From the IMG/VR virus record IMGVR_UViG_3300031857_011362, positions 1 to 64,000 of that record: 64,000 nt of DNA, one strand, 5' to 3'. Each line of letters starts with the position of its first letter. Position 1 is the stretch's first letter. The position numbers were made by a program, and so were the translations under genes. The DNA is from a virus. This document shows, piece after piece, positions 3,193 to 63,872 of the stretch. The notes under the pieces are model-generated. The model was not told where the DNA came from. It was given only the letters and a program-made list of their open reading frames with translations, and did no database searches.

Positions 3193-4389
3193 ATGTCACA
3201 AGTTCTATTAGAAGGTCGTTGGGACGAGACCAAAGAAGCCCTACTTGAAGGTCTAAAAGGTACTCGCCGCTCAACAATGAGTGTTATCTTAGAAAACACT
3301 AAAAAATCGTTACTATCTGAGTCATCAGCTGGCACAACTACATCTGGCAATATCGCTACACTAAACCGTGTGATTCTACCAGTTATCCGTCGTGTCATGC
3401 CAACCGTTATTGCTAACGAGTTGGTTGGCGTTCAGCCAATGACTGGCCCAGTTGGTCAAATTCACACTCTACGTGTTCGTTATGCTCAGTCTTTAACAGA
3501 CAACAGCACAGCGGCAACAAGCGTATCAGCAGGTGAAGAAGCTCTAAGCCCGTTCAAAATTGCTCAGGCTTACTCAACACAGACAAATGCATCTGGTTCA
3601 TCATCTATCTATACTGGCAATAACACTGCCGCTCTAGAAGGTAATGGCGGTAAGCAAATCAGTGTTCAAATCTTGCGTCAGGCTGTTGAAGCTAAGTCAC
3701 GTAAGTTACAAGCTCGCTGGACATTCGAAGCTGCCCAAGACGCTCAAAGCCAACATGGTATTGACGTTGAAGCAGAAATTATGGCCGCTCTAGCACAAGA
3801 AATTACTGCTGAGATCGACCAAGAGATTCTATTGTCATTGAGCACATTGGCTACATTGGAAGAAACATTTGACCAAGCCGCTGTATCCGGTACAGCTACA
3901 TTCGTTGGTGATGAGCACGCCGCATTGGCAGTTCTAATCAACCGTGTTGCTAACAAGATTGCTCAACGCACTCGTCGTGGCGCTGGTAACTGGGCAGTTG
4001 TATCTCCAGCTGTGTTGACTGTATTGCAATCTGCAACTACATCAGCATTTGCTCGTACAACAGAAGGTACTTTTGAAGCTCCAACTAACACTAAGTTCGT
4101 TGGTACATTGAACGGTGCAATGCGTGTTTTCGTTAACACATATGCATCTGACAGCCAAGCTGTTCTAGTTGGTTACAAAGGTACATCTGAGACTGATGCG
4201 GCAGCATTCTATTGCCCATACATCCCATTGATGTCTTCTGGCGTTGTTCTAGATCCATCAACATTCGAACCAGTCGTGTCTTTCATGACTCGTTACGGTT
4301 ATGTTGAATTGACAAACACTGCATCATCTTTCGGTAATGCAGCCGACTATCTAGGCGAAATCGATGTTGCTAACTTGACATTCAAGTAA
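3193..4389 (+). CDS. gp23: Major capsid protein (T4 gp23-like)
   Basis: Motifs LPVIRRVMPTVIANELVGVQPMTGP, RKLQARWTFEAAQD, EIDQEI, FYCPYIPL and FMTRYG. AGGAG SD. Plausible gp21 cleavage at LLSE/SS. Confidence 0.97.
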   Translation: MSQVLLEGRWDETKEALLEGLKGTRRSTMSVILENTKKSLLSESSAGTTTSGNIATLNRVILPVIRRVMPTVIANELVGVQPMTGPVGQIHTLRVRYAQSLTDNSTAATSVSAGEEALSPFKIAQAYSTQTNASGSSSIYTGNNTAALEGNGGKQISVQILRQAVEAKSRKLQARWTFEAAQDAQSQHGIDVEAEIMAALAQEITAEIDQEILLSLSTLATLEETFDQAAVSGTATFVGDEHAALAVLINRVANKIAQRTRRGAGNWAVVSPAVLTVLQSATTSAFARTTEGTFEAPTNTKFVGTLNGAMRVFVNTYASDSQAVLVGYKGTSETDAAAFYCPYIPLMSSGVVLDPSTFEPVVSFMTRYGYVELTNTASSFGNAADYLGEIDVANLTFK

Positions 4390-44323: not shown

Positions 44324-44465
44324 ATGACAATACTACAATTACCTATATATATTAGTTTTAATACCAACATTAGCTTTTGCTGATCCACAAATTCTTACTT
44401 TTGATGGTTACTGTGATAAAACTGAAAACATTTTTAAAGCATTAAGAGAAAGATTTAATGTATAG
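44324..44465 (+). pseudogene. Frameshifted remnant of a signal-peptide protein
   Basis: One reading frame gives YYNYLYILVLIPTLAFA-DPQILTFDGYCDK..., but the ATG at 44324 is out of frame by 1 nt. Confidence 0.45.
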
Positions 44466-44523
44466 TGGCGGATGGGTACTTTCATACGATTGCAATCTCT
44501 AGCTAACTAAACAATCAACTCAG

Positions 44524-44531
44524 CATAAATA
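44524..44531 (+). promoter_or_regulatory. Late promoter-like CATAAATA
   Basis: Intergenic, upstream of 44550. Confidence 0.5.
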
Positions 44532-44549
44532 CAATAAGAGAACACAAAT

Positions 44550-44933
44550 ATGGCATTAACACAAATACTCAGCTCCAGCGTATCAAACATAGCATCCATT
44601 ATCTTGAACGACATTTCTAGTCAGTTTGACGGGGCGAAATCTGTGTTTCCATTGATGTTAGATCAAACAAGCATAAATACTATTATTGATAGTAAAGATT
44701 TAGAAGTAGTGGTCAATGGACAAAGGTTAGCTCCGTACGTGACTACTTATACGTATCCATGGTTAACACCATATGATTCATTCAAAGGATTCAAAGTTAG
44801 TGGTAGCAATCTTATAATTTACAATGCGCCTTATATTGGCGACACTGCATTTTTAAAGTTGACACCCGTGTCTGCAACTAAGCAGACGAGAAGGTACCCG
44901 TTTTCAGCAACAACAATTGTATTAGGAGATTAA
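44550..44933 (+). CDS. Putative virion structural protein
   Basis: 127 aa; ISSQFDG..SVFPL start resembles the FTGNG module; structural gene context. Confidence 0.6.
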   Translation: MALTQILSSSVSNIASIILNDISSQFDGAKSVFPLMLDQTSINTIIDSKDLEVVVNGQRLAPYVTTYTYPWLTPYDSFKGFKVSGSNLIIYNAPYIGDTAFLKLTPVSATKQTRRYPFSATTIVLGD

Positions 44934-44937
44934 TTAA

Positions 44938-47832
44938 ATGGCAAAACACGTAATATTAGAGAGTTATACATTCACACCGTCAACTCGCACACTGGTAGTA
45001 AATGGTAAAAACATTCGCAGAGAGCAATTACTGCTAATTACTAATACCAACACCGGTACAGTAATATATAATTTCTCTGATCCGTCGTTACTTGCAACTG
45101 CTTACACTAATGCAGTGGACAGCGTAACGGGACTAGAAACAACTACACTGATATTGGCATACAATACCACTGCAATGCAGTCCTCAGATAAGATTTCAAT
45201 CGTAACAGAAGAAACTTATCAGGAAATCATTCCTTCGGAAGTGATGCGAGATCCAGTTGATAAACTTCGTGTGAGTACGCCACAATCATTGATTGATACT
45301 GACTTTGAATATGGTACACAGCCTACAAAATGGGACAATCTTAACTTATTACACAATCGCCCAATTGCATCATATGACCCAACACAAGGTATTAGTAATA
45401 CTTCAAGAAGCGATTTAACATTTGTTGGTTCTAATACTAGTGCTTATCAAATTACCAACGTTACATCAAGTGCAAAAGTAGTCACGGTTGCTATTAATAA
45501 CACTACTGGTATTACGGTTGGTTTACCAATCTATATTACAGGAACAGCAGATAACGCTAACGTAGATGGATGGTGGATAGTTGAAACAATTAGCGCCAAC
45601 ACTAATTTTACGTTCACTGTAACTAACACCCCAGTTACAACAGCATTATATGATGCTTTTAAAACTTATGTGTTTATTGGTGCTCGGTATACTGGGTCGG
45701 CAATTCCTCTTACAAGTATTGTAATGAATGGAACTGTAGGTACTGTCACTACATCTGTAGAACACGGGATGCGTGTGGGTGATGGTTTCAATATTGTTGG
45801 TACAACAGGTACAAGCGGTGCAGCTACAGCAGCCGGTACTATTAACTCAAGTTGGGTAGTAGCAACAACTCCCACTAATAGTACGTTTACGTTTGCGGCG
45901 GTATCAAATGCTGTTACTGCTACATTAAGCGCAGGAGTAGGTGCAACATTATTTCCAAGAGCACTGGGTTTCATACAACATAGACCATTTGACGGTGGAG
46001 TACAGTTTAGCAACGAAGTACCATATCACGGTTATCAATTAATTCGACAAACACGCCGCCAATTTCGCTATCAATCTGGTAAGGGTATACAGTTTTCAAC
46101 CGGTAGTATGATGAAACCATTAATTGTAACTGAAAATATTACATCAAGTGGTACTACGGTTACAGTCACTACAAAATATGCTCACGGCTTATTGCCGGGT
46201 GCATATGTGCGTGTTACAGGTTGCATTGAAACAGCTTACAATGGTACATTTGTTGTTGCAACCACAGCATCCGCAACAACTTTTACATATACTGCATTGT
46301 CTACTCCAACAGCATCACCGGCTACAGGTAACAATATAAATGTGAATCCGTGGACATGGTACGGTAGCAGTAACCGTCTCGGTATGTTTGATAGTCAAAA
46401 CGGATTCTTCTTTGAATTTGATGGGCAAACACTCTATGCTGTTAAACGCAGTAGTACCACACAACTATCAGGAGTAGCCTCAGTTACCAACGCTAGTCAA
46501 AGTATTACTGGTACAGGCACTAAATTTGGTAGTCAATTAAAACCAGGAGACTCCATTGTTATTCGAGGTATGACATATTTTGTAAACAATATTCAAAGTG
46601 ATACAGCAATGACTATCTCTCCAGAGTACAGGGGTGTTACCAACAGTTTAATTACAATAAGTAAAACTGTTGATACTCGTTTCCCACAGAGTTCTTGGAA
46701 CATTGACCGTTGTGACGGAACTGGTGCAAGTTTATTCAACATAGATTTGACTAAAATGCAAATGTTTTATATTGACTATACATGGTACGGTGCCGGTGCA
46801 ATACGATTTGGTTTTAAGAATAGTCGTGGTGAAGTGATCTACTGTCATAGAATTCCTAACAACAACTTAAATCCCGAAGCATACATGCGTTCTGGTAATT
46901 TAGTTGCTCGTTATGAAACTAATACAATACCGTACAGAACACATTTAACTGCTACACTAGCAAGTGCAGCCACTACCGGAGCTACAATTTCTGTAGCAGA
47001 TACAACAGATTGGCCATCTAGTGGTACTGTTGTGTTAAAACAGGCAGCGGCAACCGGTGCTGTGATTGAGTATATAACATACAGTGCCAAAACATTAACT
47101 TCATTGACTATTGCTGCCCGAGGACAAACAGGTGGCTCTAGTGCTACATTATTTACATTCTCTGCAACTGCTCCTATTTTAGCAGAACTATACAGTCCGC
47201 AGACTGCAAGTACAATCAGCCATTGGGGTAGTTCTGTCATTATGGACGGACGTTTTGATGACGATAAGTCATTGGTGTTTGTTGCGGGAATGCGCCGCAC
47301 ACAAACTATCACCAACGTAGGACAAGACGTTACTGTACCATTGATTAGTATTCGTATTGCACCAACTGTTGACAATGGTTTAACAGGTATATTAGGAGCA
47401 AGAGAAGTTATAAACCGTATGCAGTTAACAATGCGTAGTATGGGTTGTCAAACTACTGGTACTAACGCAACATTCTTAATTTCTCTGCGTTTGAATGGTC
47501 GTGTAAGTACAGGAACATTTAATTCAGCCGGCGGATCTAGTCTAGCGCAGGTAGCTTATCATGGTGCTGGTGCAACAATTACTGGTGGTGAAGATATATT
47601 TAGTTTCTATACAAACACCCCAGGTGTAACTGCACAGGACTTATCAACTGTTCGAGACATTGGCAATAGTATTTTAGGTGGCGGAACTAACAACACTTGC
47701 CCAACTACTGCCAGTGCTACTAACTTGTATCCAGATGGTCCTGATATTATTACAATTTGCGCCACAAACATTACTGCATCGAGTACAAACTCTATCAACG
47801 CACGTATTTCTTGGACTGAGGCTCAGGCTTAA
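44938..47832 (+). CDS. Large virion structural protein
   Basis: 964 aa; N-terminal YTFTPSTRT..LLLITN..VIYNFSDP resembles T4-like cyanophage structural proteins as recalled; repeated VTT..HG domains. Confidence 0.7.
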   Translation: MAKHVILESYTFTPSTRTLVVNGKNIRREQLLLITNTNTGTVIYNFSDPSLLATAYTNAVDSVTGLETTTLILAYNTTAMQSSDKISIVTEETYQEIIPSEVMRDPVDKLRVSTPQSLIDTDFEYGTQPTKWDNLNLLHNRPIASYDPTQGISNTSRSDLTFVGSNTSAYQITNVTSSAKVVTVAINNTTGITVGLPIYITGTADNANVDGWWIVETISANTNFTFTVTNTPVTTALYDAFKTYVFIGARYTGSAIPLTSIVMNGTVGTVTTSVEHGMRVGDGFNIVGTTGTSGAATAAGTINSSWVVATTPTNSTFTFAAVSNAVTATLSAGVGATLFPRALGFIQHRPFDGGVQFSNEVPYHGYQLIRQTRRQFRYQSGKGIQFSTGSMMKPLIVTENITSSGTTVTVTTKYAHGLLPGAYVRVTGCIETAYNGTFVVATTASATTFTYTALSTPTASPATGNNINVNPWTWYGSSNRLGMFDSQNGFFFEFDGQTLYAVKRSSTTQLSGVASVTNASQSITGTGTKFGSQLKPGDSIVIRGMTYFVNNIQSDTAMTISPEYRGVTNSLITISKTVDTRFPQSSWNIDRCDGTGASLFNIDLTKMQMFYIDYTWYGAGAIRFGFKNSRGEVIYCHRIPNNNLNPEAYMRSGNLVARYETNTIPYRTHLTATLASAATTGATISVADTTDWPSSGTVVLKQAAATGAVIEYITYSAKTLTSLTIAARGQTGGSSATLFTFSATAPILAELYSPQTASTISHWGSSVIMDGRFDDDKSLVFVAGMRRTQTITNVGQDVTVPLISIRIAPTVDNGLTGILGAREVINRMQLTMRSMGCQTTGTNATFLISLRLNGRVSTGTFNSAGGSSLAQVAYHGAGATITGGEDIFSFYTNTPGVTAQDLSTVRDIGNSILGGGTNNTCPTTASATNLYPDGPDIITICATNITASSTNSINARISWTEAQA

Positions 47833-47847
47833 TCACAGGAATACCCA

Positions 47848-48732
47848 ATGTCAAGTAGAAATAGCTTACAACATACTGTGTCAGCGGTTGAACCCGTTGG
47901 CGCGGCCTTGGGTGACGAATGGTATAACTCCACTACCAACTTACTGTACAAACGTATGGTGGTTGGTGGCGTACCCCAATGGGCCACTATCACTGCTGGC
48001 GCCTCTTCGTCAACTAGTTCTGTAGTTGTTCCTACTAATATCTCAGAAAAAGTCAACAGGACTATTACTAATCAGACTAGCTACACTGTAACCAGCGCTT
48101 TGGCCGCGGCACTGACATTGCCTGTCACACCGGGCTATATGTACATCATACACTCAATTTATGTAACTAATGTTGATACAGCTTACGCTACTACCACTAC
48201 GGTCAGCGGCACTATAGCATATGCAACTCCCGTATCTACTGTGTCTTTTGCTAACAAGATACCAATTCCAGCAAGAGGCGCATTAGAACTACTACGCAAG
48301 CCGCAGTTGTTAAATCCCGGTGATGTAATTAATATACAGTCATTGGCTGCTGGCGTAGGCGCAAATAATTTGCTACAAGTTACTATAACATACGAACAAG
48401 TTCCTGCTGATGCCAACTACTTTGGTGTTGGTGTAAGTACTGCTGCTACAGTAGGCGATGTATATGTTGTGCCTGCAACTAGTGTTGCTGCTGTGATTGA
48501 CAGCATTAGAGTAGTAAATAGTAGTGACGTGGGTGATATTGCAATAACACTAACTTGGACTAATGCAACTAATTCGGTATTAGGAACACTGACTAGTAGT
48601 TTTATCGTACCAGCAAATTCTACTGTAGAATTATGTGAAACTGCCAAGCGTATTCCAACTGGAAATAAGATAAGAGCTGTGGCCACTACTGCATCAGCAA
48701 TAAGTGTTTTTGTATCTGGTAGGACACAGTAA
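47848..48732 (+). CDS. Putative virion structural protein with two internal repeats
   Basis: Two similar domains (IHSIYVTN / IDSIRVVN ... IPARGALEL / VPANSTVEL), loosely like domain A. Confidence 0.6.
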
Positions 48733-49874
48733 TGCCCGGTGGGATTTTTAGCCTGACTCAGGTTACCGAGCAACAAATAGACGGTACTTGGCCTACTCAA
48801 TGGTATTCCCCTGGATTATATAGTTGGGGTAATAATGGATATGGTCGATTGGGTTTAGGTGATACTACAGCTAGATCTAGTCCTAACCAAACTAGTTCTT
48901 TGACGCCTTGGTCAAGTATTTCTGCAGGTAGATTTCACAACCTAGCAATTAAAACCGATGGTACCATGTGGTCATGGGGGTTAAATCAATATAGTTGGTT
49001 TGGAATTCTTGGTTTAGGTGATACTACAGATAGATCCAGCCCAGTACAAATTGGTGCATTAACTACTTGGTTAAGTATTTCTGCCGGTGCCGGCAGTTAT
49101 CACAACCTGGCCATCAAAACAGATGGTACCATGTGGACATGGGGTAGAAATCATTATGGGCAATTAGGTCAAGGCAATACTACAGATAGATCCAGCCCAG
49201 TACAAATAGGTGCATTAACTACTTGGTCAAAAATTTCTGCCGGCGGTTATCACAGCATGGTCATCAAAACCGATGGTACACTGTGGTCATGGGGTAGGAA
49301 TGGCTCTGGTAATTTGGGTTTAGGTGATACTACAGATAGATCCAGCCCAGTACAAATTGGTGCATTAACTACTTGGTCAAAAATTTCTGCAGGTAGTCAC
49401 AGCACAGCCATCAAAACCGATGGTACACTGTGGTCATGGGGATATAATGGTTGGGGTGGTTTAGGTTTAGGTGATCTAACAAATAGATCCAGTCCAGTAC
49501 AAATAGGTGCATTAACTAATTGGTTAAGTGTTTCTGCCAGCTACAATCAGACGTGCATAGCAATTAAAACAGATGGTACACTATGGTCATGGGGATATAA
49601 TGCTCAAGGGCAATTAGGTTTAGGAAATACTACATCTAGAAATAGTCCAGTACAGATTGGAGCATTAACTACTTGGTTAAATGTTTCTGCCGGTAGCTAT
49701 CTCGGCTTGGCCGTTAAAACCGATGGTACCATGTGGACATGGGGCCAAAATAATAATGGGGAATTAGGTCAAGGCAATACTACAGATAGATCCAGCCCAG
49801 TACAGGTTGGTGCATTAACTACTTGGGAAAAAATTGCTGCAGGATCTAGGCACAGCCTAGCCACCAAGAATTAA
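48732..49874 (+). CDS. 7-blade RCC1 protein with an N-terminal GxWP motif
   Basis: Seven WxWG repeats; TAATG overlap. Confidence 0.88.
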
Positions 49875-49893
49875 TAATAAAAAGAACAACTAA

Positions 49894-50268
49894 ATGCCAT
49901 TTACTTTTTCAGGCTTAAATTTCGTCGGCGACGTTAGCGCGCAAGCAGTCTTTGCTCCTACTCCAGAATATTACCTTTGGTCATGGGGTCGCAATAGTTA
50001 TGGTAATTTAGGTTTAGGTGATACTACAAATAAATCCAGTCCAGTACAGATTGGTGCATTAACCACATGGTCAAATATTTCTGCAGGTAATGCTAACAGT
50101 GCAGCCATTAAAACAAATGGTACACTGTGGGTCTGGGGAATTGGCAACTTTGGGGGGTTAGGACAAGGTAACACTATTAGCCGCTCTAGTCCTGTACAAA
50201 TTGGCGCATTAACTACTTGGTCAAATATTTCTGCAGCCAACAATCACATCCTTGCCATCTTTAATTAA
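49894..50268 (+). CDS. Two-blade RCC1 protein (collapsed, possibly a pseudogene)
   Basis: Only two WxWG repeats, but a normal HILAI C-terminus is retained. Confidence 0.7.
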   Translation: MPFTFSGLNFVGDVSAQAVFAPTPEYYLWSWGRNSYGNLGLGDTTNKSSPVQIGALTTWSNISAGNANSAAIKTNGTLWVWGIGNFGGLGQGNTISRSSPVQIGALTTWSNISAANNHILAIFN

Positions 50269-50308
50269 TACTTCAATTTATTGATACCCTTGTAAAATAT
50301 TTTCCACC

Positions 50309-50334
50309 ATCAAGCATCACAGTAAATACTTGAT
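50309..50334. promoter_or_regulatory. Dyad ATCAAGCAT-N8-ATACTTGAT overlapping AGTAAATA and the start codon
   Basis: One mismatch between arms; a second, perfect copy is at 55819. Confidence 0.6.
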
Positions 50335-52105
50335 GCAAAAAACACTTCACTTCTTATCAGGCATTCCCCGTTCGGGTTCAACGGTACTTGCTGCAATTTT
50401 AAATCAAAACCCACTTACTCATGTCAGTACAACTTCTGGGTTAGTTCATGCATTAGACGGACTAGCCAACACTTGGCACAGTGCTGGACTACTTAATGAA
50501 ACAGACGCTGACCGCTCTAAACTAGCTGCTACAATGCGAGGCACTATTGACGCATTTTATAGTGATATTGACAAACCAGTTATCATTGACAAATCACGAG
50601 GATGGCCTATTGCTCAAATCATGCAAGCAATGGCACAGGTACTACAACATGCACCCCGCATCATTGCTACTGTGCGCTCAGTACCTGACTGTGCTGCAAG
50701 TTTTATTCGTGTTGCAAAGCCCACTGACTTAGATGACTTTATGCAATCAGGGCAACTAATGGATCATTTACGGGCGGCATATATCTCATTGCAAAACGGG
50801 TATAACTTTGCACCCGAATGCTTCTTGTTTGTAGAGTATGAAGACTTAGTGCGTGACCCTAAAACAGAACTTGCAAGAGTACATGCTTTCTTGGGATTGC
50901 CTGACTTTGAATATGACTTTAACAACATCGACGGTTCCACTGTGTCTGAAGATGACGAGAACTTGCACGGACATGCAGGTATGCATGATGTTAAACCCGT
51001 GCTAGAGCGTCAACACAATCAAGACCCAAGAGAACTACTGAAGCACCACTATGCTACATTCTGTCAAGGTGAGTTCTGGTTAGAGCGGCCGCGCACTGTA
51101 CCCGAGATACATGATTTGGATTTGCAATTGGCAGCAAGCACAATTGGTGACTTCGTTGAAGGATGGAGATTAGCACAAAAGTTAGAAACAGAAGAACCTA
51201 ATAATCATCGTGCAGCATACAATCGTGGTTGGTACTTGCTACATCAAAGACAGATACAAAAAGGTTATCAGCTAATGAATCGCGGTAGATTGTCTAGTGT
51301 TTTTGGTGATGCAAGACCAAATGTACCTACCCCAGAATGGGATGGCAAGAGCAAGGGTATTGTGTTGTTATGCTTGGAAGGTGGACTGGGCGATCAGATT
51401 CATCAAATTCGTTATGCAAAGAACATTGCAGACCGTGGATGTAAAGTTATCGTAGCATGTTCGGGCCCACTAGCATCGCTATTCTTCAATGCAGAAGGTG
51501 TCTCTAGTGTGATTCAACATGAAGCAGTGTTTGGTATCTATCACGACTTTTGGGTTGCTGGCATGAGTGCAGTTGTGCCACTGGGCTTTGAGTTAGAAGA
51601 TATAAGTGGCAAGCCTTATCTAGCCAAGCCTAATGTAATCAAGGGTCATAAGAAACGAATCGGTCTACGCTGGCAGGGCAACAGCAAGTTTGAGCATGAG
51701 CATCACAAAAAGTTCCCCTTCTACTTGATGTTTGACGCAGTGAAAGATGCTGATGTTGAGTTTATCAGCTTGCAACGTGATGAAGGTGCAGAAGCATGTC
51801 CTTACTGGGTCAAGCAAGTTCCGTTAAACTCTTGGGAAGATACCCGTGCCGCAGTTGCCAGTTGTGATTTAGTTATCAGTTCTTGCACTTCAGTCAGTCA
51901 TTTGGCAGGAGCAATGGGAGTCGATACTTGGGTAGTTACCCCAATCATGCCCTACTTTTTGTATGCATTGCCCGGCGAGAAAACTCCCTATTATGACAGC
52001 TTTACTCTGTTCAGACAGGAATCTTTCGGAGACTGGACAGCACCGTTTGTCAAAATGAAAGAACGCTTGTCTATTACCAATCCCAAGCTAAAACTTGTGG
52101 GGTAA
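50333..52105 (+). CDS. Sulfotransferase-TPR-glycosyltransferase (GT9-like) fusion
   Basis: GIPRSGST (5'-PSB), DKSRGW and R..DCAAS; TPR-like AAYNRGWYLL; GGLGDQI, IGLRWQG and CDLVISSCTSVSHLAGAMG. ATG at 50333 (the track start is TTG at 50330). Confidence 0.85.
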   Translation: MQKTLHFLSGIPRSGSTVLAAILNQNPLTHVSTTSGLVHALDGLANTWHSAGLLNETDADRSKLAATMRGTIDAFYSDIDKPVIIDKSRGWPIAQIMQAMAQVLQHAPRIIATVRSVPDCAASFIRVAKPTDLDDFMQSGQLMDHLRAAYISLQNGYNFAPECFLFVEYEDLVRDPKTELARVHAFLGLPDFEYDFNNIDGSTVSEDDENLHGHAGMHDVKPVLERQHNQDPRELLKHHYATFCQGEFWLERPRTVPEIHDLDLQLAASTIGDFVEGWRLAQKLETEEPNNHRAAYNRGWYLLHQRQIQKGYQLMNRGRLSSVFGDARPNVPTPEWDGKSKGIVLLCLEGGLGDQIHQIRYAKNIADRGCKVIVACSGPLASLFFNAEGVSSVIQHEAVFGIYHDFWVAGMSAVVPLGFELEDISGKPYLAKPNVIKGHKKRIGLRWQGNSKFEHEHHKKFPFYLMFDAVKDADVEFISLQRDEGAEACPYWVKQVPLNSWEDTRAAVASCDLVISSCTSVSHLAGAMGVDTWVVTPIMPYFLYALPGEKTPYYDSFTLFRQESFGDWTAPFVKMKERLSITNPKLKLVG

Positions 52106-52122
52106 ATTACCAAACATATGTT

Positions 52123-52130
52123 GATAAATA
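52123..52130 (+). promoter_or_regulatory. Late promoter-like GATAAATA
   Basis: Followed by CTGT-ATG of an 11-codon uORF, then 52163. Confidence 0.55.
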
Positions 52131-52162
52131 CTGTATGAAGAATTTATCAACGGAATATTATT

Positions 52163-53341
52163 ATGGCTGAAACAAATACAAAAGGCGTACTGACAGTAGG
52201 AGAAGTTTACGAACGGCAGACTGCTGGAGTGTGGCCAACTGAGCGGCATAATAATTATGTTAATCTGGCGATACGTACAGCTGGCCTTGCCACCAACGGC
52301 CAGCTTGGTAATGATAGTCGTATTGGACGCAGTAGCCCGGTACAAGTTGGTGAGCACGCCGACTGGAGTACTACCTCTGGTGGCACATACTTCACTACTG
52401 CAATCAAAACAAATGGAACACTATGGGCATGGGGATTTAATAATGTTGGCCAGCTAGGATTAGGTGATGCTGGTATTGGTATTAACAGATCCAGCCCAGT
52501 ACAAGTTGGTGCATTAACTAATTGGTCAAAGATTAGTGGAGGTGATGCGCACATTGCGGCCATCAAAACAGGCGGAACATTGTGGACATGGGGAAGCAAT
52601 ACAAATGGCGGCCTTGGCTTGGGTGACACTACTAGTAGATCCAGTCCGGTGCAAGTCGGTGCATTGACTACTTGGAAACAAGTAAGTGTATCTTTTTATA
52701 ATCATTTATATGCTGTTAAAACAGACGGCACCCTATGGAGCTGTGGAAATAACAGCTTCGGCCAGCTAGGACTAGGTGATACTCTTAGCCGATCCAGCCC
52801 GGTGCAAGTCGGAACATTAACTACCTGGAGTACTGTAGCTGCCTGCGGTTACCACGGAATTATGGTAAAGACAGATGGTACCCTTTGGACCTGCGGCTAC
52901 AATTTTCAAGGTCGGCTCGGCCTAGGTGATACTCTTAGCCGATCCAGCCCAGTGCAAGTTGGCTTATTAACTAATTGGAAATCTGCCACAGCATCGTTGA
53001 GCAGTAGCACTACACTTAAAACAGATGGTACTATTTGGGCTTGGGGCAGTAACAGCAATGGCCAGCTAGGACTAGGTGATACTCTTAGCCGATCCAGCCC
53101 AGTGCAAGTCGGCGCATTAACTACTTGGAAATCTATTGCTGCAGGTGGCGGAGGTCATGTAAGCGCAACTAGAATAACTACTGATACTCTATGGAACTGG
53201 GGAAATAACAACTATGGTCAACTAGGCTTAGGTGACACTGTTAGCCGATCTAGTCCGGTTCAAGTAAGTTCAATCACGCTTCGGACGATCTCAATTGGCG
53301 AACCGTCTGGATATTATCACATGTTAGCAATCATCGAATAA
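52163..53341 (+). CDS. 7-blade RCC1 protein with an N-terminal GxWP motif
   Basis: Seven repeats, the first divergent. Confidence 0.88.
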   Translation: MAETNTKGVLTVGEVYERQTAGVWPTERHNNYVNLAIRTAGLATNGQLGNDSRIGRSSPVQVGEHADWSTTSGGTYFTTAIKTNGTLWAWGFNNVGQLGLGDAGIGINRSSPVQVGALTNWSKISGGDAHIAAIKTGGTLWTWGSNTNGGLGLGDTTSRSSPVQVGALTTWKQVSVSFYNHLYAVKTDGTLWSCGNNSFGQLGLGDTLSRSSPVQVGTLTTWSTVAACGYHGIMVKTDGTLWTCGYNFQGRLGLGDTLSRSSPVQVGLLTNWKSATASLSSSTTLKTDGTIWAWGSNSNGQLGLGDTLSRSSPVQVGALTTWKSIAAGGGGHVSATRITTDTLWNWGNNNYGQLGLGDTVSRSSPVQVSSITLRTISIGEPSGYYHMLAIIE

Positions 53342-53368
53342 ACTATTTCTAAATAACTCAGCACAAAG

Positions 53369-53376
53369 AATAAATA
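53369..53376 (+). promoter_or_regulatory. Late promoter-like AATAAATA
   Basis: Intergenic, before an AAGGA SD and 53408. Confidence 0.45.
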
Positions 53377-53407
53377 CATAACAGCATTTTACATAAAGGA
53401 AAACAAA

Positions 53408-53794
53408 ATGGCACTATTCGTACAAGTAATCAACGGTGAAGTCAAACAAGTCTGGGACTCTACTCCACCAGCCGGCGAAGCAGGCTGGGCAGATGCAGTA
53501 GAAGTTCGTTCACCTATTCAACCCGGGCGTCAGGGCTACCTAGCACATCGTTTTGATTTGACAACTACACCAATTCAAATCATCTGGGATACATATGATA
53601 TTTCGGTTGAGGATCGCAAAAATGACATGTCTGCTAATGCAGGTTTCGTGTTCCAGCAAGTTCTACAAGAACAAGCCCGCGATCCAGCATCTTACAATGC
53701 AGAGCAAGTTGAAGCAGCAAGAGAAGTAATGGTTGCTAAACAAGCGGCAATTGCAGCAACTACTACACATGACGAGCTAGACGCACTGGTTTGA
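53408..53794 (+). CDS. Hypothetical protein (fibre-associated/chaperone-like by context)
   Basis: 128 aa with a good SD; no family recognised. Confidence 0.6.
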   Translation: MALFVQVINGEVKQVWDSTPPAGEAGWADAVEVRSPIQPGRQGYLAHRFDLTTTPIQIIWDTYDISVEDRKNDMSANAGFVFQQVLQEQARDPASYNAEQVEAAREVMVAKQAAIAATTTHDELDALV

Positions 53795-54573
53795 TGATTT
53801 ATTTCTTAAGTGGCTTGCCACGATCGGGTTCAACATTGTTAGGCTCAATATTGAATCAAAATCCAGATGTTTATGTTTCACCAACAAGTCCTTTATTGGA
53901 CTTGTTGTGCCTACAGAATGAAGCATTAAACCGTGTCAAAGAGCAGTATACATTTGATGAAGATAAACAATCTGAATCAATTTACAAAGCATTGCCCCAG
54001 GCTTTCTATCAGCATATAAACAAACCACATATCATTGACAAGCACAGAGCTTGGGCAAGAAATGTGTTGCCAGCACAAATGCATATCAATAGTGACCCCA
54101 AAGTCATTTGCACATATCGTCCTGTTGCTGAAGTTGTAGTTAGTTTTTTAAAACTAATCAACAAAGACCCCAACAACTTTGTTGACGCTGAGTTACGAAA
54201 AAAAAGCATTGCTATTACTACCGAGAATCGTGCTAGAGAGTTATGGGAAGGCTATATCAGTGACCCGTGGCAAAGTATACAGATAGGATTGCAAAACTAT
54301 AAAAATAACTTATATTTTGTGTCATATGATGATTTAGTCAATAAACCTGAGACCACTATTGCAAGTGTATATAACTTTCTCGGTATTGATCAATACCAGC
54401 ATGTGTTTGATAGTATCAGCAATAGTTGCGGTGAATCAAAAGACGCAGCATGGGGACTCAAAGACCTACATACAATTAGACCTAAGCTAGCTAAGACTAG
54501 TGATGATCCTGTAACTGTGTTAGGTGAGAATTTGTGTAAATACTTTAATCAATTTGATATTAAACGAGTATAA
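53794..54573 (+). CDS. PAPS-dependent sulfotransferase
   Basis: GLPRSGSTLL, DKHRAW and YRP..EVVVS; TGATG overlap; paralogous to the N-terminus of 50333. Confidence 0.85.
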   Translation: MIYFLSGLPRSGSTLLGSILNQNPDVYVSPTSPLLDLLCLQNEALNRVKEQYTFDEDKQSESIYKALPQAFYQHINKPHIIDKHRAWARNVLPAQMHINSDPKVICTYRPVAEVVVSFLKLINKDPNNFVDAELRKKSIAITTENRARELWEGYISDPWQSIQIGLQNYKNNLYFVSYDDLVNKPETTIASVYNFLGIDQYQHVFDSISNSCGESKDAAWGLKDLHTIRPKLAKTSDDPVTVLGENLCKYFNQFDIKRV

Positions 54574-54576
54574 CAC

Positions 54577-55707
54577 ATGACTAACAAGACCGCCCTGACA
54601 TTAACTCAAGCATACAATAAGCAATTAAGCGGCACTTGGCCTACTCAATGGTATATACCCATTGGATTATATAGTTGGGGATTTAATGGTAATGGTAACT
54701 TAGGTTTAGGCAATACTACAAATTATTCTAGTCCAAAACAGATTGGTGCATTAACTACTTGGTCAAAAATTGCTGCAGGTTATGATCACAACATAGCCGT
54801 AAAAACAGATGGTACGATGTGGTCATGGGGGCAAAATTTCTATGGCGCCTTGGGTTTAGGTAATACTACAAATAGATCTAGTCCAGTACAGGTTGGTGCA
54901 TTAACCACTTGGTCAAGTATTGTTGCCAACAGTTTTAATGGCAGCATAGCTATTAAAACAGATGGTACTATATGGTCTTGGGGTTACAATAATAATGGTG
55001 AATTAGGTTTAGGCAATACTACAGATAGATCCAGCCCAGTACAAATTGGAGCATTAAGTACTTGGTCAAGTATTTCTGGAGGTAGATTTCGCAGCCATGC
55101 AATTAAAACAGATGGTACACTGTGGTCATGGGGATCTAATAACCATGGTCGCTTGGGGTTAGGTAATACTACAAATTATTCTAGTCCAAAACAAATAGGT
55201 GCATTAACTACTTGGTTAAGTATTTCTGCAGGTAATTATCATAGCATAGCCATCAAAACCGATGGTACACTGTGGACGTGGGGGCAAAATAGCTATGGCC
55301 AATTAGGTCAAGGTGATACTACATCTAGATCCAGTCCAGTACAGATTGGTGCATTAACTACTTGGTTAAAGATTGCTGGAGGTATTTATCACAGCATGGC
55401 CATTAAAACAGATGGTACACTATGGACATGGGGCCAAAACAGTCATGGTCAATTAGGTTTAAGTGATACTATACGTAGATCCAGCCCAGTACAAATTGGT
55501 GCATTGACTAATTGGTTAAATATTGCTGCTGCATATCACAGCATGGCCATTAAAACAGATGGTACCATGTGGTCATGGGGATTGAATCAAGATGGCCAGC
55601 TTGGGGTAGGAGATACTACAGCTAAATCTAGTCCAGTACAAGTTGGTGCATTAACTAATTGGTTAAATGTTTCTGCAGGTAATAATCACAGCCTGGCCAT
55701 CGGTTAA
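54577..55707 (+). CDS. 7-blade RCC1 protein with an N-terminal GxWP motif
   Basis: Seven WxWG repeats; GTWPTQWY is shared with 48732. Confidence 0.88.
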   Translation: MTNKTALTLTQAYNKQLSGTWPTQWYIPIGLYSWGFNGNGNLGLGNTTNYSSPKQIGALTTWSKIAAGYDHNIAVKTDGTMWSWGQNFYGALGLGNTTNRSSPVQVGALTTWSSIVANSFNGSIAIKTDGTIWSWGYNNNGELGLGNTTDRSSPVQIGALSTWSSISGGRFRSHAIKTDGTLWSWGSNNHGRLGLGNTTNYSSPKQIGALTTWLSISAGNYHSIAIKTDGTLWTWGQNSYGQLGQGDTTSRSSPVQIGALTTWLKIAGGIYHSMAIKTDGTLWTWGQNSHGQLGLSDTIRRSSPVQIGALTNWLNIAAAYHSMAIKTDGTMWSWGLNQDGQLGVGDTTAKSSPVQVGALTNWLNVSAGNNHSLAIG

Positions 55708-57040: not shown

Positions 57041-57892
57041 ATGAAAAAAATTCTCATCATGGGCTTACCAGGCTCAGGTAAAACATTTCTAGCAACAGCA
57101 CTTAAAAAGTATTTGGAAGAAAACTCCAACATACAAACGATGCCAATTGAGCGTATGCTACATTTAGAATTGCCACCTATCTCGTATACTAGCAAAGTTG
57201 ACTGGTTCAACGCAGACGAGATTCGAAAACGATTCAATGACTGGGACTTTAGTCGTGAAGGACGCATTAGACAGAGTTTGCGCATGGCAGAGTTTGCATT
57301 GAAGTCAACTGGTGACTTTGTTATCTGTGACTTTGTTGCACCACTAGTAGAGATGCGTAATAACTTCAAAGCAGACTGGACTATCTGGATGGATACTATT
57401 GATGCTGGAAGATTCGATGATACTAACAAAGCATTTGTTCCACCAGAAGTATATGACTTTAGAGTAACAGAACAGAATGCAGACAAGTGGGCAGAGTTTA
57501 TCGGCAATCATATTTTAGAAAATCGTCGGAGACCTGTGTTTGATTGGCAAAAAGAAACAGTGCAACAACTTGGCCGGTGGCAACCTTGGCACCCGGGACA
57601 CCGTGCATTATTTGACAGATTGATTCAACGCACTGGTCAAGTTGTGATTCAAATTAGAGATTGTCAGGGATGGCAAGGAAGCAATCCATTTGCAATCGAT
57701 CAAGTTAAAAATGCAATTCGCAGAGACTTAGATCCGGTGTATCAGGGTCAATACGAGATTCAAGTCGTGCCTAATATCACGCACATTGGATGGGGTCGTG
57801 GTGTTGGGTATACCTCAGGTGAAGAAACATTTGACGAATCTATCACTAGTATCTCGGGTACACAAATTCGTAAGGAAATGGGCCTTGGTTGA
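57041..57892 (+). CDS. APS-kinase-like P-loop domain fused to an HxGH nucleotidyltransferase domain
   Basis: GLPGSGKT, NADEIRK..DWDFSREGR and DFVAP; then GRWQPWHPGH and ISGTQIR. Confidence 0.75.
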   Translation: MKKILIMGLPGSGKTFLATALKKYLEENSNIQTMPIERMLHLELPPISYTSKVDWFNADEIRKRFNDWDFSREGRIRQSLRMAEFALKSTGDFVICDFVAPLVEMRNNFKADWTIWMDTIDAGRFDDTNKAFVPPEVYDFRVTEQNADKWAEFIGNHILENRRRPVFDWQKETVQQLGRWQPWHPGHRALFDRLIQRTGQVVIQIRDCQGWQGSNPFAIDQVKNAIRRDLDPVYQGQYEIQVVPNITHIGWGRGVGYTSGEETFDESITSISGTQIRKEMGLG

Positions 57893-58088
57893 AACCGGAA
57901 CACGAAGTTTAGTCAAAACAATAAGCTGGCGGATAACCGGTTCTGGCGCGACATTTCTAGTTGCGTGGTTGATTTCTGGAAACCTAGCAGTATCCACTTC
58001 CATTGCAATAGTACAATTAACAATTAACACGATATTGTATTACTTTCACGAACGAATTTGGAACAGAGTATCTTGGGGCAAAGAGTAA
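57885..58088 (+). CDS. DUF2061-like small membrane protein
   Basis: RSLVKTISWRI..YYFHERIWNRV.WG; likely TTG start at 57885 behind AAGGA. Confidence 0.75.
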   Translation: MVETGTRSLVKTISWRITGSGATFLVAWLISGNLAVSTSIAIVQLTINTILYYFHERIWNRVSWGKE

Positions 58089-62239: not shown

Positions 62240-63336
62240 GTAAAGAACAATATAATTTAAGTAAGCAAACAAACTACCTCAAGCGTACAATGTTTTTAGA
62301 CCCAGCCGGTCCTGTAACAGTACAACGTTTTGAAGAAGTTAAGTACCCTCGCATTGCCAAGTATGAAGAAACAGCACGTGGCTTCTTTTGGGTGCCCGAA
62401 GAGATTTCGTTGACTAAAGATAAAATGGATCACAAAGATTCCAGTGATGCTATCAAGCATATTTTTACTAGCAACCTACTAAGACAAACAGCCTTAGACA
62501 GTATTCAAGGTCGTGCACCTAGTCAAGTGTTTAGTCCTGTAATCAGTATACCTGAACTTGAAGCACTAGTGGGTAACTGGAGTTTCTTTGAGACTAACAT
62601 TCACAGTAAGTCATACAGTCATATCATTCGCAATGTATATGGTGTACCTAAAGAAGAATTCAACAAGATACATGATACAAAAGAGATTATTGACATGGCT
62701 GCTAGCATCGGTAGATACTATGAAGCACTACATCAACTTAATTGTTTAAAAGAAACAGGTTCTGAAGTATCAGAACGTGAACACATTAAAGCTATTTGGA
62801 TGGCACTACATGCAAGTTATGCATTAGAAGCATTTAGATTTATGGTAAGTTTTGCAACAAGTCTTGCTATGGTAGAGAATCGAATTTACATTGGTAACGG
62901 AAACATTATCTCCTTGATCCTGCAAGATGAGTTGCTTCACGCTGAGTGGACAGCATGGTTGATTAATAACGTGACTAAGGATGATACTAGATTTGCTTCT
63001 ATTGTAGAAGAATGTCGTGTCGAAGTGTATGCATTGTATATGGAAGTTATTAAAGAAGAAAAAGAGTGGGCCGAGTATCTATTCAGTAAGGGTGTAGTAA
63101 TTGGCTTGAATGCAGAGATATTAAAAGACTTTGTAGACTTTACTGCATTTACTCGTTTGAAAGAAATTGGTATCAAGTACACGGAAAACTATCCTAAGCA
63201 TAGTCCTATCCCATGGTTCAACAAGCACGTTAATTTAAATAAAAAACAGGCCGCGCTCCAGGAGACAGAAAGTACATCCTATGTAATAGGGGTAATGTCA
63301 GATACAGTTAATTATGATGAGTTGCCAATTCTATGA
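62236..63336 (+). CDS. nrdB: Ribonucleotide reductase class Ia beta subunit
   Basis: [34 protein letters not shown] and STSY; ATGA overlap with nrdA. Confidence 0.96.
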
Positions 63337-63872
63337 CGACAATTATCAAAATGATACCTCTTCATTGCATTTGAGCCACCTTCTAGCTCACAGTGTGGGC
63401 AAGTAGTTTTAAGTTTTGACCCTAATTTTTTGCCCTTCAATATATTAGGCAACCCTTTATTCCAAGCAACATATCCTCTAGCCTTAGGACTAGCTAATCT
63501 AGCAGCCACAACATTCGCAATGTGCTCTGGTGATTTTTTACGGCCAGTAAGTTGTTTACTTGCATTGGATTTAAATTCATCGGACCTAATACATCCGGTA
63601 CCTCCTTCGCCACCGTCTGTCATATTGTGAAGTATCCCGTTACCCAAGTCTTTACGACCGTACCATTTGATATAACGTCTTTCTAATGCAAAAGCGCCTA
63701 GCTCAGATAGATTTTTCTCTAAAAAAACAATCCTACGTAGATCCTTAGGTGTATGTACTCCACCTCTCTTGGTACGATGTGATTGAAATGCTCTGCTATC
63801 TTTACCCTTACCAATGTAGTAGGGTTTGCCGTCTTTTCTTATATAGGCGTAGACATAATATGCTAAATACAT
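63312..63872 (-). mobile_element. GIY-YIG homing endonuclease with a NUMOD3-like segment
   Basis: YVYAY...[22 protein letters not shown] and CPHC; convergent with nrdB and overlapping it by 25 bp. Confidence 0.85.

What the first reader, a model, noticed from the sequence alone, without database searches (positions are those of the whole stretch)
57041..58088. Candidate miniature bifunctional PAPS synthase
Seen: a CysC-like P-loop domain fused to a ~115-aa HxGH domain (QLGRWQPWHPGH ... ISGTQIR) in only 283 aa. Established: eukaryotic PAPS synthases have the same order (APS kinase then HxGH-type ATP sulfurylase), and both ATP sulfurylases and NMN adenylyltransferases use HxGH and SGTxxR motifs. 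The GRxQP spelling looks more like NMNAT. As I recall, DUF2061 neighbours sulfate-assimilation genes in some bacteria. Inference: a minimal ATP sulfurylase evolved from an NMNAT-like fold supplies PAPS to the adjacent sulfotransferases.
Basis: partly seen in the sequence, partly recalled or inferred. Interest (0 to 1): 0.7.

Follow-up and report, generated by a model that had tools for sequence, protein, structure and literature searches.

The report
Miniature PAPS synthase in lake phage
A 283-residue jumbo-phage protein joins a trimmed APS kinase to a ~120-residue adenylyltransferase that, by comparative genomics, is probably an unrecognised miniature ATP sulfurylase, the enzyme thought "missing" from most SAR11 ocean bacteria, so the phage can probably make its own activated sulfate (PAPS).

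Summary
ORF 57041..57892 (+, 283 aa) is an APS-kinase-like P-loop domain fused to a ~119-aa HxGH nucleotidyltransferase. A separate DUF2061 ORF (57885..58088) overlaps its stop codon.

By sequence and fold the small transferase is nearest to archaeal/NadM NMN adenylyltransferases, but only over the ATP-binding half. Wherever it occurs, it travels with enzymes that handle APS:
- It is fused or translationally coupled to the short kinase.
- In one SAR11 genome it lies beside a canonical APS kinase.
- In SAR11 it sits directly upstream of aprM-aprB-aprA, the position sat occupies in classical operons.
- It is linked to DUF2061, which is itself fused to canonical APS kinases.
- It lies next to PAPS-type sulfotransferases in phages and soil Alphaproteobacteria.

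In 81 SAR11 genomes, 36 of 37 with AprB carry it and only 2 of those 37 have canonical Sat. Genomes with the transferase alone have no strong sulfotransferase hit. Twelve genomes with strong sulfotransferase hits have the kinase-transferase pair and no Sat.

Published work says most SAR11 lack ATP sulfurylase. No held paper describes this enzyme.

Caveat: related phages without sulfotransferases also carry the fusion, so feeding them is not its only role.

The parts
57041..57892 (+). Gene for the 283-aa bifunctional protein (short APS kinase + mini adenylyltransferase)
   Evidence: ORF; phrog_10255 spans residues 56-281; AF2 pLDDT 90.7
57041..57535 (+). APS-kinase-like P-loop domain (residues 1-165), with a lid about 20 residues shorter than canonical CysC
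   Evidence: PF01583 above cut-off; profile vs PDB APS kinases E 1e-15; Foldseek top hits are APS kinases; K14, D59, R62 and F70 conserved, aligned to human PAPSS1 D89, R92 and F101
57062..57085 (+). Walker A / P-loop GLPGSGKT (residues 8-15)
   Evidence: Sequence; conserved in alignment A1
57122..57196 (+). Clade-specific insertion in the kinase domain (about residues 28-52), modelled with low confidence
   Evidence: Gap in all non-lake-phage relatives; pLDDT 49-61
57533..57889 (+). Mini HxGH adenylyltransferase domain (residues 165-283), the proposed ATP sulfurylase
   Evidence: AF2 pLDDT 94.3; fold matches; 46% identical (E 3e-35) to the aprMBA-linked SAR11 protein
57572..57601 (+). GRWQPWHPGH motif (residues 178-187; HxGH ATP-binding signature)
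   Evidence: G178, R179, Q181, H184 and H187 invariant in 45 homologues
57794..57811 (+). GRGVGY (residues 252-257; family consensus YGRDVGY), family-specific arginine loop
   Evidence: G252, R253 and G256 invariant; no counterpart in the NMNAT alignments, which end before it
57851..57871 (+). ISGTQIR motif (residues 271-277)
   Evidence: R277 invariant, I271 and S272 nearly so; aligns with ISGTEIR of the Aquifex ATP sulfurylase
57885..58088 (+). DUF2061 small membrane protein; its start overlaps the stop of the synthase gene
   Evidence: Pfam PF09834 E 2e-21; two hydrophobic segments; DUF2061 fused to canonical APS kinases and to both modules of this family elsewhere
50330..52105 (+). Sulfotransferase (N-terminal Sulfotransfer_3 domain) with a long uncharacterised C-terminal part; presumed PAPS consumer
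   Evidence: Pfam E 1e-15; genome search hit
53791..54573 (+). Sulfotransferase (260 aa); presumed PAPS consumer
   Evidence: Pfam Sulfotransfer_3 E 5e-16 and Sulfotransfer_1 E 6e-14

Best explanation
The 283-aa protein is a miniature bifunctional PAPS synthase. Its C-terminal ~120-residue HxGH domain acts as an ATP sulfurylase (ATP + sulfate <-> APS + PPi). This is a new small class, derived from the NMNAT/PPAT-like branch of the nucleotidyltransferase superfamily rather than from Sat. Its N-terminal short-lid APS kinase then phosphorylates the 3'-OH of APS to give PAPS, which pulls the unfavourable first step forward. In this jumbo lake phage the PAPS most likely feeds the two phage sulfotransferases encoded 3-7 kb upstream on the same strand. 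The overlapping DUF2061 gene probably provides a small membrane partner. Shown here: the domain identities, motif conservation, fusion/fission pattern, gene neighbourhoods and co-occurrence. Inferred: the substrate of the small transferase, the direction of flux, the sulfation target and the role of DUF2061.
For: (1) The kinase half is an APS-kinase homologue that keeps the residues aligned with human PAPSS1 D89, R92, F101, R106 and N109 (here D59, R62, F70, R75, Q78) (D87/D89 role from PMC11697783).
(2) The two halves are fused in phages, soil Alphaproteobacteria and some SAR11. In about 22 SAR11/SAR86 loci they are separate genes with overlapping stop and start.
(3) The transferase also occurs next to a canonical APS kinase (L168; 101 bits).
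(4) In 11 of 12 fetched SAR11 loci the stand-alone transferase lies directly upstream of a multi-TM aprM-like gene, aprB and aprA. PMC2211403 says aprM always precedes aprBA in this lineage. Five such genomes have no Sat and no APS kinase.
(5) In 81 SAR11 genomes the AprB x transferase table is 36/1/10/34 (Fisher 1e-12, not phylogeny-corrected). Sat is in 4 of 81. 34 AprB+ genomes have the transferase and no Sat.
(6) The apr-linked kinase-less forms are one clade (95/91) nested in kinase-fused SAR11 forms on short branches. The window's domain is 46% identical to them.
(7) Sulfotransferases: 39 of 80 related viral loci and 12 of 80 cellular loci have one within the flank. Two TPR-sulfotransferases are adjacent in Bradyrhizobium. 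The only Sulfotransfer_3 hit in a 7.4-Mb Inquilinus genome is about 3 kb away. In SAR11, strong sulfotransferase hits occur in 17 of 38 genomes with a kinase against 2 of 43 without, and in 0 of 13 transferase-only genomes. Twelve have the short-kinase pair and no Sat.
(8) DUF2061 is fused to canonical APS kinases (173-187 bits), to the short kinase and to the transferase.
(9) Five test genomes already have CoaD, NadD and CoaE.
(10) ATP sulfurylase shares the fold (1v47, Z 8.9, 114 of 119 residues aligned).
(11) The literature records the gap: 'most SAR11 lack ATP sulfurylase' (PMC10356861); pathways 'incomplete' while aprAB is core (PMC12636525).
Against: No biochemical evidence exists. The best sequence and fold matches of the transferase are NMNAT and PPAT, not ATP sulfurylase. 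Pfam ATP-sulfurylase is not matched by the window's domain, and only 1 of 22 relatives matches it, weakly at E 1e-3. The sulfate-binding QxRN spelling of Sat is replaced by GRxQP. The kinase lid is shortened by about 20 residues, and whether the second adenine-stacking Phe survives depends on the alignment chosen. Sano/Salvo-like phages and DLP_6 carry the fusion with no Sulfotransfer_3 gene, next to a NADAR gene. Five large related phage contigs also lack Sulfotransfer_3. In most SAR11 the split pair is not adjacent to sulfotransferases. The co-occurrence statistics are not corrected for shared ancestry. Ten AprB-negative SAR11 genomes carry the transferase.
Confidence: 0.65

Rival explanations
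1. The kinase is a true APS kinase, but the small transferase runs only in the APS-consuming direction or uses another acceptor. Examples are an APS:phosphate adenylyltransferase / ADP-sulfurylase-type reaction, or APS + PPi -> ATP only. In fusions it would recycle or buffer APS rather than make it, and APS would come from the host.
For: The cleanest context, NT-aprM-aprB-aprA without a kinase, only requires APS consumption. Some hosts with the fusion also have CysDN/CysNC (Inquilinus).
Against: Nucleotidyl transfer in this fold is reversible (established chemistry of HxGH enzymes). Twelve SAR11 genomes with strong sulfotransferase hits have the kinase-transferase pair and no Sat, and the two checked for CysD (G001, G003) have no convincing hit. 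Those genomes have no other evident APS source apart from AprBA. A fusion to the enzyme that consumes APS is the arrangement expected for synthesis.
Confidence: 0.12
2. The transferase activates a different small anion or phosphate ester, for example a sugar phosphate or glycerol phosphate for glycan decoration, or selenate or a phosphonate. The kinase then acts on that adenylylated or cytidylylated product. The sulfur-gene neighbourhoods would be coincidental or reflect a sulfur-containing but non-sulfate substrate.
For: Automatic names are 'cytidyltransferase'. Pfam CTP_transf_like is the only family hit. The window's island also holds a GT25 glycosyltransferase and methyltransferases. Some SAR11 fused copies lie in polysaccharide-like regions (SIS-domain neighbour).
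Against: This does not explain the repeated linkage to APS reductase, canonical APS kinase and DUF2061-CysC fusions. The domain is too small to hold a large acceptor: the NMN-binding segment of NMNAT is missing. The kinase keeps the APS-kinase substrate motif.
Confidence: 0.1
3. It is an NAD-related bifunctional enzyme: an NMN adenylyltransferase joined to a kinase (NadR-like logic, or NAD to a phospho-NAD). It would serve phage NAD salvage or counter-defence.
For: The closest solved relatives of the C-half are NMNATs (1f9a E 1.6e-11; NadM 4e-10; Z about 10). A NADAR-domain gene overlaps the fusion's start in Sano/Salvo-like phages.
Against: Similarity to NMNAT stops after the ATP-binding half. 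NCBIfam NMNAT models score 23 bits against a 181 cut-off. The kinase matches APS kinases, not NadR/Nrk kinases (P-loop-only hits, E above 1e-3). All five tested genomes, including the three streamlined SAR11 genomes, already have NadD. No NAD genes appear in any cellular neighbourhood examined.
Confidence: 0.06
4. It is a compact CoA synthase: a PPAT-like adenylyltransferase plus a kinase that phosphorylates the 3'-OH of dephospho-CoA.
For: PPAT is the top VIA-align match (Z 10.4). Enoyl-CoA hydratase and CoA-binding genes follow the pair in many SAR11. The chemistry is formally parallel: adenylylation, then 3'-phosphorylation.
Against: All five genomes tested have canonical CoaD and CoaE. The kinase is APS-kinase-like, not CoaE-like. 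This reading gives no explanation for the apr, sulfotransferase or DUF2061 links.
Confidence: 0.02

Closest known systems
Animal bifunctional PAPS synthase (PAPSS1/2)
   Same: Same domain order (N-terminal APS kinase, C-terminal HxxH adenylyltransferase) and the same proposed two-step chemistry (PMC11697783). The kinase halves are homologous.
   Different: PAPSS is over 600 aa, with a ~390-aa Sat-type sulfurylase that includes a PUA-like domain. Here the whole protein is 283 aa. The transferase is ~120 aa, is not a detectable Sat homologue by sequence and is closer to NMNAT/PPAT. The kinase lid is about 20 residues shorter.
Sat-type ATP sulfurylase (Pfam PF01747), including the Sat-APS kinase fusions of Aquifex (2gks) and Thiobacillus (3cr8)
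   Same: Same superfamily fold (1v47 Z 8.9; 2gks Z 6.3). Both have the HxxH and ISGTxxR motifs. Same genomic partners: APS reductase and APS kinase.
   Different: No significant sequence match. It lacks the QxRN sulfate-binding spelling and the N-terminal domain, and is about a third of the size. In bacterial Sat-APSK fusions the order is reversed (sulfurylase first).
CysDN / NodPQ (GTPase-coupled ATP sulfurylase with CysC or fused CysNC)
   Same: It provides APS/PAPS. NodPQ is a precedent (established knowledge) for a dedicated PAPS supply encoded beside a sulfotransferase gene, as seen here in Bradyrhizobium and the phage.
   Different: CysD is a PP-loop ATPase fold and CysN a GTPase. They are unrelated to this domain, and no GTPase partner is present here.
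Archaeal / NadM-type NMN adenylyltransferase (1f9a, 1hyb, 2qjt)
   Same: This is the best sequence and fold match. GRFQPxHxGH, the NPF motif and ISGTxIR are shared.
   Different: The family is about 45 residues shorter. Alignment ends before the NMN-binding part. The family has its own conserved (V/I)RD and YGRDVGY motifs. NCBIfam cut-offs are missed by a wide margin. The genomic context is sulfur, not NAD.
Canonical APS kinase CysC (PF01583 / TIGR00455)
   Same: P-loop, the (D/N)xDxxR...F-S..R motif and the FxxP strand. Pfam gathering score passed.
   Different: Only positions 32-93 of 152 of the Pfam model match for the window protein. TIGR00455 scores 22.5 against a 138.7 cut-off. The lid is shorter. 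The lake-phage clade has a 25-residue insertion after the P-loop helix.

Membership tests
APS kinase (Pfam PF01583) | Score above the Pfam gathering threshold | tested here: met
   31.5 bits against 21.1, but partial (model positions 32-93 of 152). Relatives score up to 61 bits.
APS kinase (NCBIfam TIGR00455 equivalog) | Score above the equivalog cut-off | tested here: not met
   22.5 bits against 138.7. It is a divergent short subfamily, not a canonical CysC.
APS kinase | Walker A P-loop and the DGDxxR / F-S..R..N substrate and Mg motif | tested here: met
   GLPGSGKT is present. D59, R62 and F70 are invariant or nearly so, R75 and Q78 nearly invariant. They align to D89, R92, F101, R106 and N109 of human PAPSS1. 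The first Asp (D87) is Asn in this protein.
APS kinase | Full-length mobile lid (RDxKGLYxxAR...FTGID) | tested here: not met
   About 20 residues are absent relative to three DUF2061-CysC fusions and a SAR11 CysC.
APS kinase | Fold | tested here: met
   The first 20 ranked Foldseek hits are APS kinases; the listed E-values run from 5e-6 to 1e-4, with TM to target up to 0.73.
Sat-type ATP sulfurylase (Pfam PF01747) | Sequence match to the family model | tested here: not met
   No hit for the window protein. 1 of 22 relatives hits at E 1e-3. Only insignificant local matches to 2gks.
Sat-type ATP sulfurylase | HxxH and ISGTxxR motifs | tested here: met
   H184-x-x-H187 and I271-SGTQI-R277. These are shared with the whole superfamily, so they do not discriminate.
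Sat-type ATP sulfurylase | QxRNP sulfate/phosphate-binding spelling before HxxH, and the GRD loop | tested here: inconclusive
   The motif here is GRxQP, not QxRNP. A conserved YGR(D/G)VGY loop stands between the HxGH and ISGT motifs, where I recall the Sat 'GRD' loop to be. That equivalence rests on my recollection and could not be checked on coordinates.
Sat-type ATP sulfurylase | Catalytic-domain fold | tested here: inconclusive
   1v47 Z 8.9 (114 residues, rmsd 3.2). Other sulfurylases Z 5.5-6.3. NMNAT and PPAT score higher, Z about 10.
Sat-type ATP sulfurylase | Enzymatic activity (ATP + sulfate <-> APS + PPi) | not testable with these tools
   Needs an assay. It is supported indirectly by context.
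NMN adenylyltransferase, archaeal/NadM type (TIGR01527) | Score above the equivalog cut-off | tested here: not met
   23.3 bits against 181.2.
NMN adenylyltransferase, archaeal/NadM type | GRFQPxHxGH and SGTxIR ATP-binding motifs | tested here: met
NMN adenylyltransferase, archaeal/NadM type | NMN-binding segment following the third strand | tested here: not met
   Profile alignments to 1f9a, 2qjt and 1hyb end at about profile position 70-85 of 126. The family is about 45 residues shorter than the 164-181-aa NMNATs.
Bifunctional PAPS synthase (functional class) | APS kinase and sulfate adenylyltransferase on one chain, or coupled | tested here: inconclusive
   The architecture and fission/fusion pattern fit. 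The second activity is inferred only.
DUF2061 (PF09834), neighbouring ORF | Pfam match | tested here: met
   76.7 bits against 23.1, full model length.

The most novel reading that the evidence does not exclude
The ~120-residue HxGH domain founds a third, miniature class of ATP sulfurylase, alongside Sat and CysDN. It would be the long-'missing' sulfate adenylyltransferase of SAR11: it completes AprBA-dependent sulfite oxidation (APS + PPi -> ATP + sulfate) in the most abundant marine heterotrophs. Coupled to a short APS kinase, it would also give SAR11, soil Alphaproteobacteria and jumbo or temperate-zone phages a self-contained PAPS supply.
Probability: 0.6. Interest if true: 0.88.

Novelty: new variant of a known kind. 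Interest (0 to 1): 0.8.

Why it matters
If the small domain is an ATP sulfurylase, four things follow.
1. A recognised hole in SAR11 sulfur metabolism is filled. aprAB is core and under strong purifying selection, yet 'most SAR11 lack ATP sulfurylase'. With this enzyme, sulfite from taurine, DMSP or sulfonate breakdown could be oxidised to sulfate with substrate-level ATP gain. That changes energy and sulfur budgets for the most abundant ocean heterotrophs.
2. SAR11 genomes that carry sulfotransferases but no Sat or CysDN would have a PAPS source.
3. Marker-gene surveys that count sat or cysDN would be systematically missing sulfate activation in SAR11, SAR116, SAR86 and many soil Alphaproteobacteria.
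4. Phages would be shown to carry a complete sulfation toolkit (PAPS synthase plus sulfotransferases). This is a new type of auxiliary function that could modify virion fibres or host surfaces.

At 283 aa it would also be the smallest known PAPS synthase, which could be useful for enzymatic PAPS regeneration.

Tried and rejected
- **Phage collection search.** It returned only distant relatives (below 60% identity), because records near the window are withheld. It gave the Sano/Salvo/DLP_6 contexts, which were uninformative about the substrate.
- **Literature.** Searches for the fusion, for DUF2061 function and for a novel ATP sulfurylase found no description of this enzyme. Most subscription papers are not in the library, so this is not proof of novelty.
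- **Foldseek on the isolated C-domain.** Nothing below E 1e-3. The fold is clear from VIA-align, but fold cannot separate sulfurylase, NMNAT and PPAT.
- **CoA synthase and NMNAT readings.** Rejected mainly because all five tested genomes, including three streamlined SAR11, already have CoaD, NadD and CoaE.
- **Neighbours of the fusion in sulfotransferase-free phage loci.** They are a TctA/TctC transporter, DnaJ, a radical-SAM-like gene and a GH19-like lysin. None informs on function.
- **Active-site geometry.** Model coordinates are not exposed to the script box, so I could not test whether R206 and R253 cluster at the HxGH site.
- **DUF2061 joined to the synthase by read-through.** Considered and rejected. 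It lies in the +1 frame relative to the synthase, with a TTG start overlapping the stop, so it is a separate coupled ORF.
- **Not run.** Complex prediction was not used, because the report does not claim that the modules bind each other. The sequencing-run tools were not used either.
- **Earlier scan notes.** They held only untested first-reader versions of the same idea on other phages.
Full report
**Observation.** The window belongs to a 124,442-bp virus record rated about 35% complete, so it is a fragment of a jumbo phage. A major head protein lies at 3193..4389. The stated range 57041-58088 holds two genes. The second is a DUF2061 ORF (Pfam E 2e-21) in another frame. Its likely TTG start at 57885 overlaps the TGA stop at 57890-57892.

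**Domain identities.** The N-half passes the Pfam APS_kinase threshold (31.5 against 21.1 bits), but only over model positions 32-93. NCBIfam equivalogs for CysC and for NMNAT are both missed by a wide margin. A PHROG family annotated only as 'kinase' spans both halves (E 2e-40). I aligned 45 full-length homologues of 35-86% identity (A1). Invariant residues are K14, R62, F70, G178, R179, Q181, H184, H187, G252, R253, G256 and R277.

The A1 profile hits solved APS kinases with its N-half (E 1e-15 to 1e-12). Its C-half hits archaeal/NadM NMNATs (1.6e-11 and 4e-10). Sat-type sulfurylase domains are not significant. The printed alignments put D59, R62, F70, R75 and Q78 opposite D89, R92, F101, R106 and N109 of human PAPSS1. 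D87/D89 are the mutationally defined phosphotransfer motif (PMC11697783).

The AF2 model is confident (pLDDT 90.7), and its first 20 ranked Foldseek matches are APS kinases. Compared with canonical CysC sequences found here, the kinase lacks about 20 lid residues.

The C-domain modelled alone has pLDDT 94.3. VIA-align gives PPAT Z 10.4, NMNAT Z 10.2, NadM Z 10.1, NadR Z 9.2 and T. thermophilus ATP sulfurylase-APS Z 8.9 with 114 of 119 residues aligned. Fold therefore places it in the HxGH adenylyltransferase superfamily but cannot name the substrate. Sequence similarity to NMNAT covers only the ATP-binding half. The acceptor-binding part is missing. In its place are the family-specific motifs (V/I)RD and YGRDVGY.

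**Distribution and fission.** The family is very large: over 7,700 hits among the 8,000 candidates scored, and 1,836 cluster representatives at E below 1e-3. It occurs in hundreds of uncultured phage contigs and in Sano/Salvo-like siphophages and DLP_6. Unexpectedly, it also occurs in cellular genomes: many Pelagibacteraceae including complete chromosomes, SAR116, SAR86, and soil Alphaproteobacteria such as Bradyrhizobium and Inquilinus.

In about 22 SAR11/SAR86 loci the two halves are separate genes (about 135 aa and 124 aa) whose stop and start overlap. So these are autonomous modules kept together by selection.

**Context: everything points to APS.**

(i) Sulfotransferases. An HMM built iteratively from the window's and Bradyrhizobium's sulfotransferases finds one within the flank in 39 of 80 viral loci and 12 of 80 cellular loci. 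In Bradyrhizobium two TPR-sulfotransferase genes are immediately upstream. In a 7.4-Mb Inquilinus genome the only Sulfotransfer_3 hit lies about 3 kb from the fusion.

(ii) DUF2061. This domain is fused to canonical full-length APS kinases (173-187 bits), to this family's short kinase and to this family's transferase.

(iii) Canonical CysC. In one SAR11 genome the transferase is adjacent to a canonical APS kinase (101 bits).

(iv) APS reductase. In a SAR11 subclade the transferase stands alone (126 aa). In 11 of 12 fetched loci it sits in the fixed order MFS transporter, TENA/PQQC-like gene, transferase, a 264-aa protein with at least four TM segments, AprB (110 bits), AprA. PMC2211403 states that in this Apr lineage aprBA is always preceded by and co-transcribed with the membrane gene aprM. 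The transferase therefore occupies the slot where, to my knowledge, sat sits in sat-aprMBA operons of sulfur oxidisers. Five such genomes have no Sat match and no APS kinase.

**Phylogenetic profiles.** I used a sample of 81 SAR11 genomes of at least 85% completeness.
- 46 carry the transferase and 37 carry AprB.
- 36 of 37 AprB-positive genomes carry the transferase. The exception has aprB on a small contig.
- 10 of 44 AprB-negative genomes carry it (Fisher 1e-12, not corrected for phylogeny).
- Canonical Sat is in 4 of 81, and in 2 of the 37 AprB-positive genomes.
- All 13 transferase-only genomes are AprB-positive, and none has a strong sulfotransferase hit.
- Strong sulfotransferase hits occur in 17 of 38 genomes with any APS kinase against 2 of 43 without (p 3e-5).
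- 12 genomes combine strong sulfotransferase hits with the short-kinase/transferase pair and no Sat.

A tree of 104 transferase domains puts the apr-linked, kinase-less forms as one clade (95/91) nested among kinase-fused SAR11 forms on short branches. The window's domain is 46% identical to them (E 3e-35), with every motif retained. The simplest reading is one catalytic activity used in two settings.

**Mechanistic model.** The transferase catalyses ATP + sulfate <-> APS + PPi. Beside AprBA it runs towards ATP and sulfate, which is sulfite detoxification with substrate-level ATP gain. Joined to the kinase it runs towards APS, which is pulled on to PAPS. That is the classical cure for the very unfavourable equilibrium of sulfate activation (established biochemistry; animal PAPS synthase has the same domain order).

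In the phage, the gene lies in a co-oriented island with two sulfotransferases (50330..52105 and 53791..54573). Both keep, by my reading of the sequence, the GxPRSGST phosphosulfate-binding loop. The island also holds RCC1-repeat fibre-like proteins, methyltransferases, a DUF6445 oxygenase-like gene and a GT25 glycosyltransferase. This suggests sulfation of virion or host surface structures. The target is unknown.

**Rivals.**
- An NMNAT or NadR-like role fits the best structural neighbours and the NADAR neighbour in Sano-like phages. But the NMN site is absent, and all five tested genomes, including three streamlined SAR11, already have NadD.
- A PPAT/DPCK-like role is excluded on the same grounds.
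- A different acceptor cannot be excluded without assays, but it would leave the APS-centred contexts unexplained.
- An APS-consuming-only enzyme remains possible for the apr context. It fits poorly with genomes that have sulfotransferases, the pair and no other sulfurylase.

**Unexplained.** Sano/Salvo-like phages, DLP_6 and about half of the related jumbo-phage contigs carry the fusion without any Sulfotransfer_3 gene. Either other acceptor enzymes are used, or PAPS/APS production serves another purpose there.

**Literature and novelty.** PMC10356861 notes that 'most SAR11 lack ATP sulfurylase'. PMC12636525 (2025) still describes the sulfate pathways of all Pelagibacteraceae examined as incomplete, while aprAB is core and under the strongest purifying selection. 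No paper in the held library describes this enzyme. Databases call the small protein 'cytidyltransferase' and the fusion 'kinase' or 'adenylylsulfate kinase'.

First-stage readers of this scan raised the same idea on other lake-phage windows, without tests.

I rate it a new variant of a known kind: a PAPS synthase and ATP sulfurylase built from a different, much smaller branch of the same superfamily. Confidence in the central claim is 0.65, because all the evidence is comparative.

Noticed in passing
window 35909-55707: Six RCC1-repeat proteins (PHROG 'regulator of chromosome condensation'/tail protein hits) lie in a row, the last ones alternating with the two sulfotransferase genes. They may be the sulfation or glycosylation targets, or fibre proteins.
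   Followed up: partly
window 50330-52105: In the 591-aa sulfotransferase, the Pfam-recognised domain covers only residues 8-193. About 390 C-terminal residues have no family hit. Homologues at 68-81% identity recur upstream of the fusion in many related phage loci.
   Followed up: no
window 63312-63872 (-): A 186-aa ORF on the opposite strand right after nrdB starts with a GIY-YIG-like string ([18 protein letters not shown]). It is probably a homing endonuclease beside the ribonucleotide reductase genes.
   Followed up: no
L164-L175 (SAR11), e.g. L167:5902-6573: A TENA/THI-4/PQQC-family (haem-oxygenase-like) gene of 221-223 aa and an MFS transporter are strictly conserved just upstream of the transferase-aprMBA cluster. 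A Cys/Met PLP enzyme lies further up. Their role in the sulfite/APS pathway is unknown.
   Followed up: no
P0165 (395 aa); G036:C11:36289-36633: Longer architectures exist: DUF4118 (a membrane domain) + short kinase + transferase, and a SAR11 copy of the transferase inside a 465-aa ORF. Together with DUF2061 this hints at recurrent membrane anchoring of the module.
   Followed up: partly
L007:3710-4663, L029:3248-4690 and related jumbo-phage loci: Phage-encoded TctC-like binding protein and TctA-like membrane transporter lie close to the fusion in sulfotransferase-free phage loci, together with DnaJ and a radical-SAM-like gene.
   Followed up: partly
L001:5559-6735, L002:5559-6735 (Sano/Salvo-like phages): The fusion gene overlaps the end of a NADAR-domain gene by 8 nt and is followed by a DNA methyltransferase. 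No sulfotransferase is present in these 56-kb genomes.
   Followed up: partly
L116:8835-10250, L103:6340-7959: Arylsulfotransferase (ASST, Arylsulfotran_2) genes are directly adjacent to the fusion in Inquilinus and a Rhodospirillaceae genome. ASST enzymes are regarded as PAPS-independent, so the link is curious.
   Followed up: no
L168:6567-7076 (-): The canonical-length APS kinase next to the transferase in this SAR11 genome has a degenerate substrate motif (no Arg at the R75-equivalent position). Its partner transferase sits on a very long branch (1.71) in the tree.
   Followed up: no
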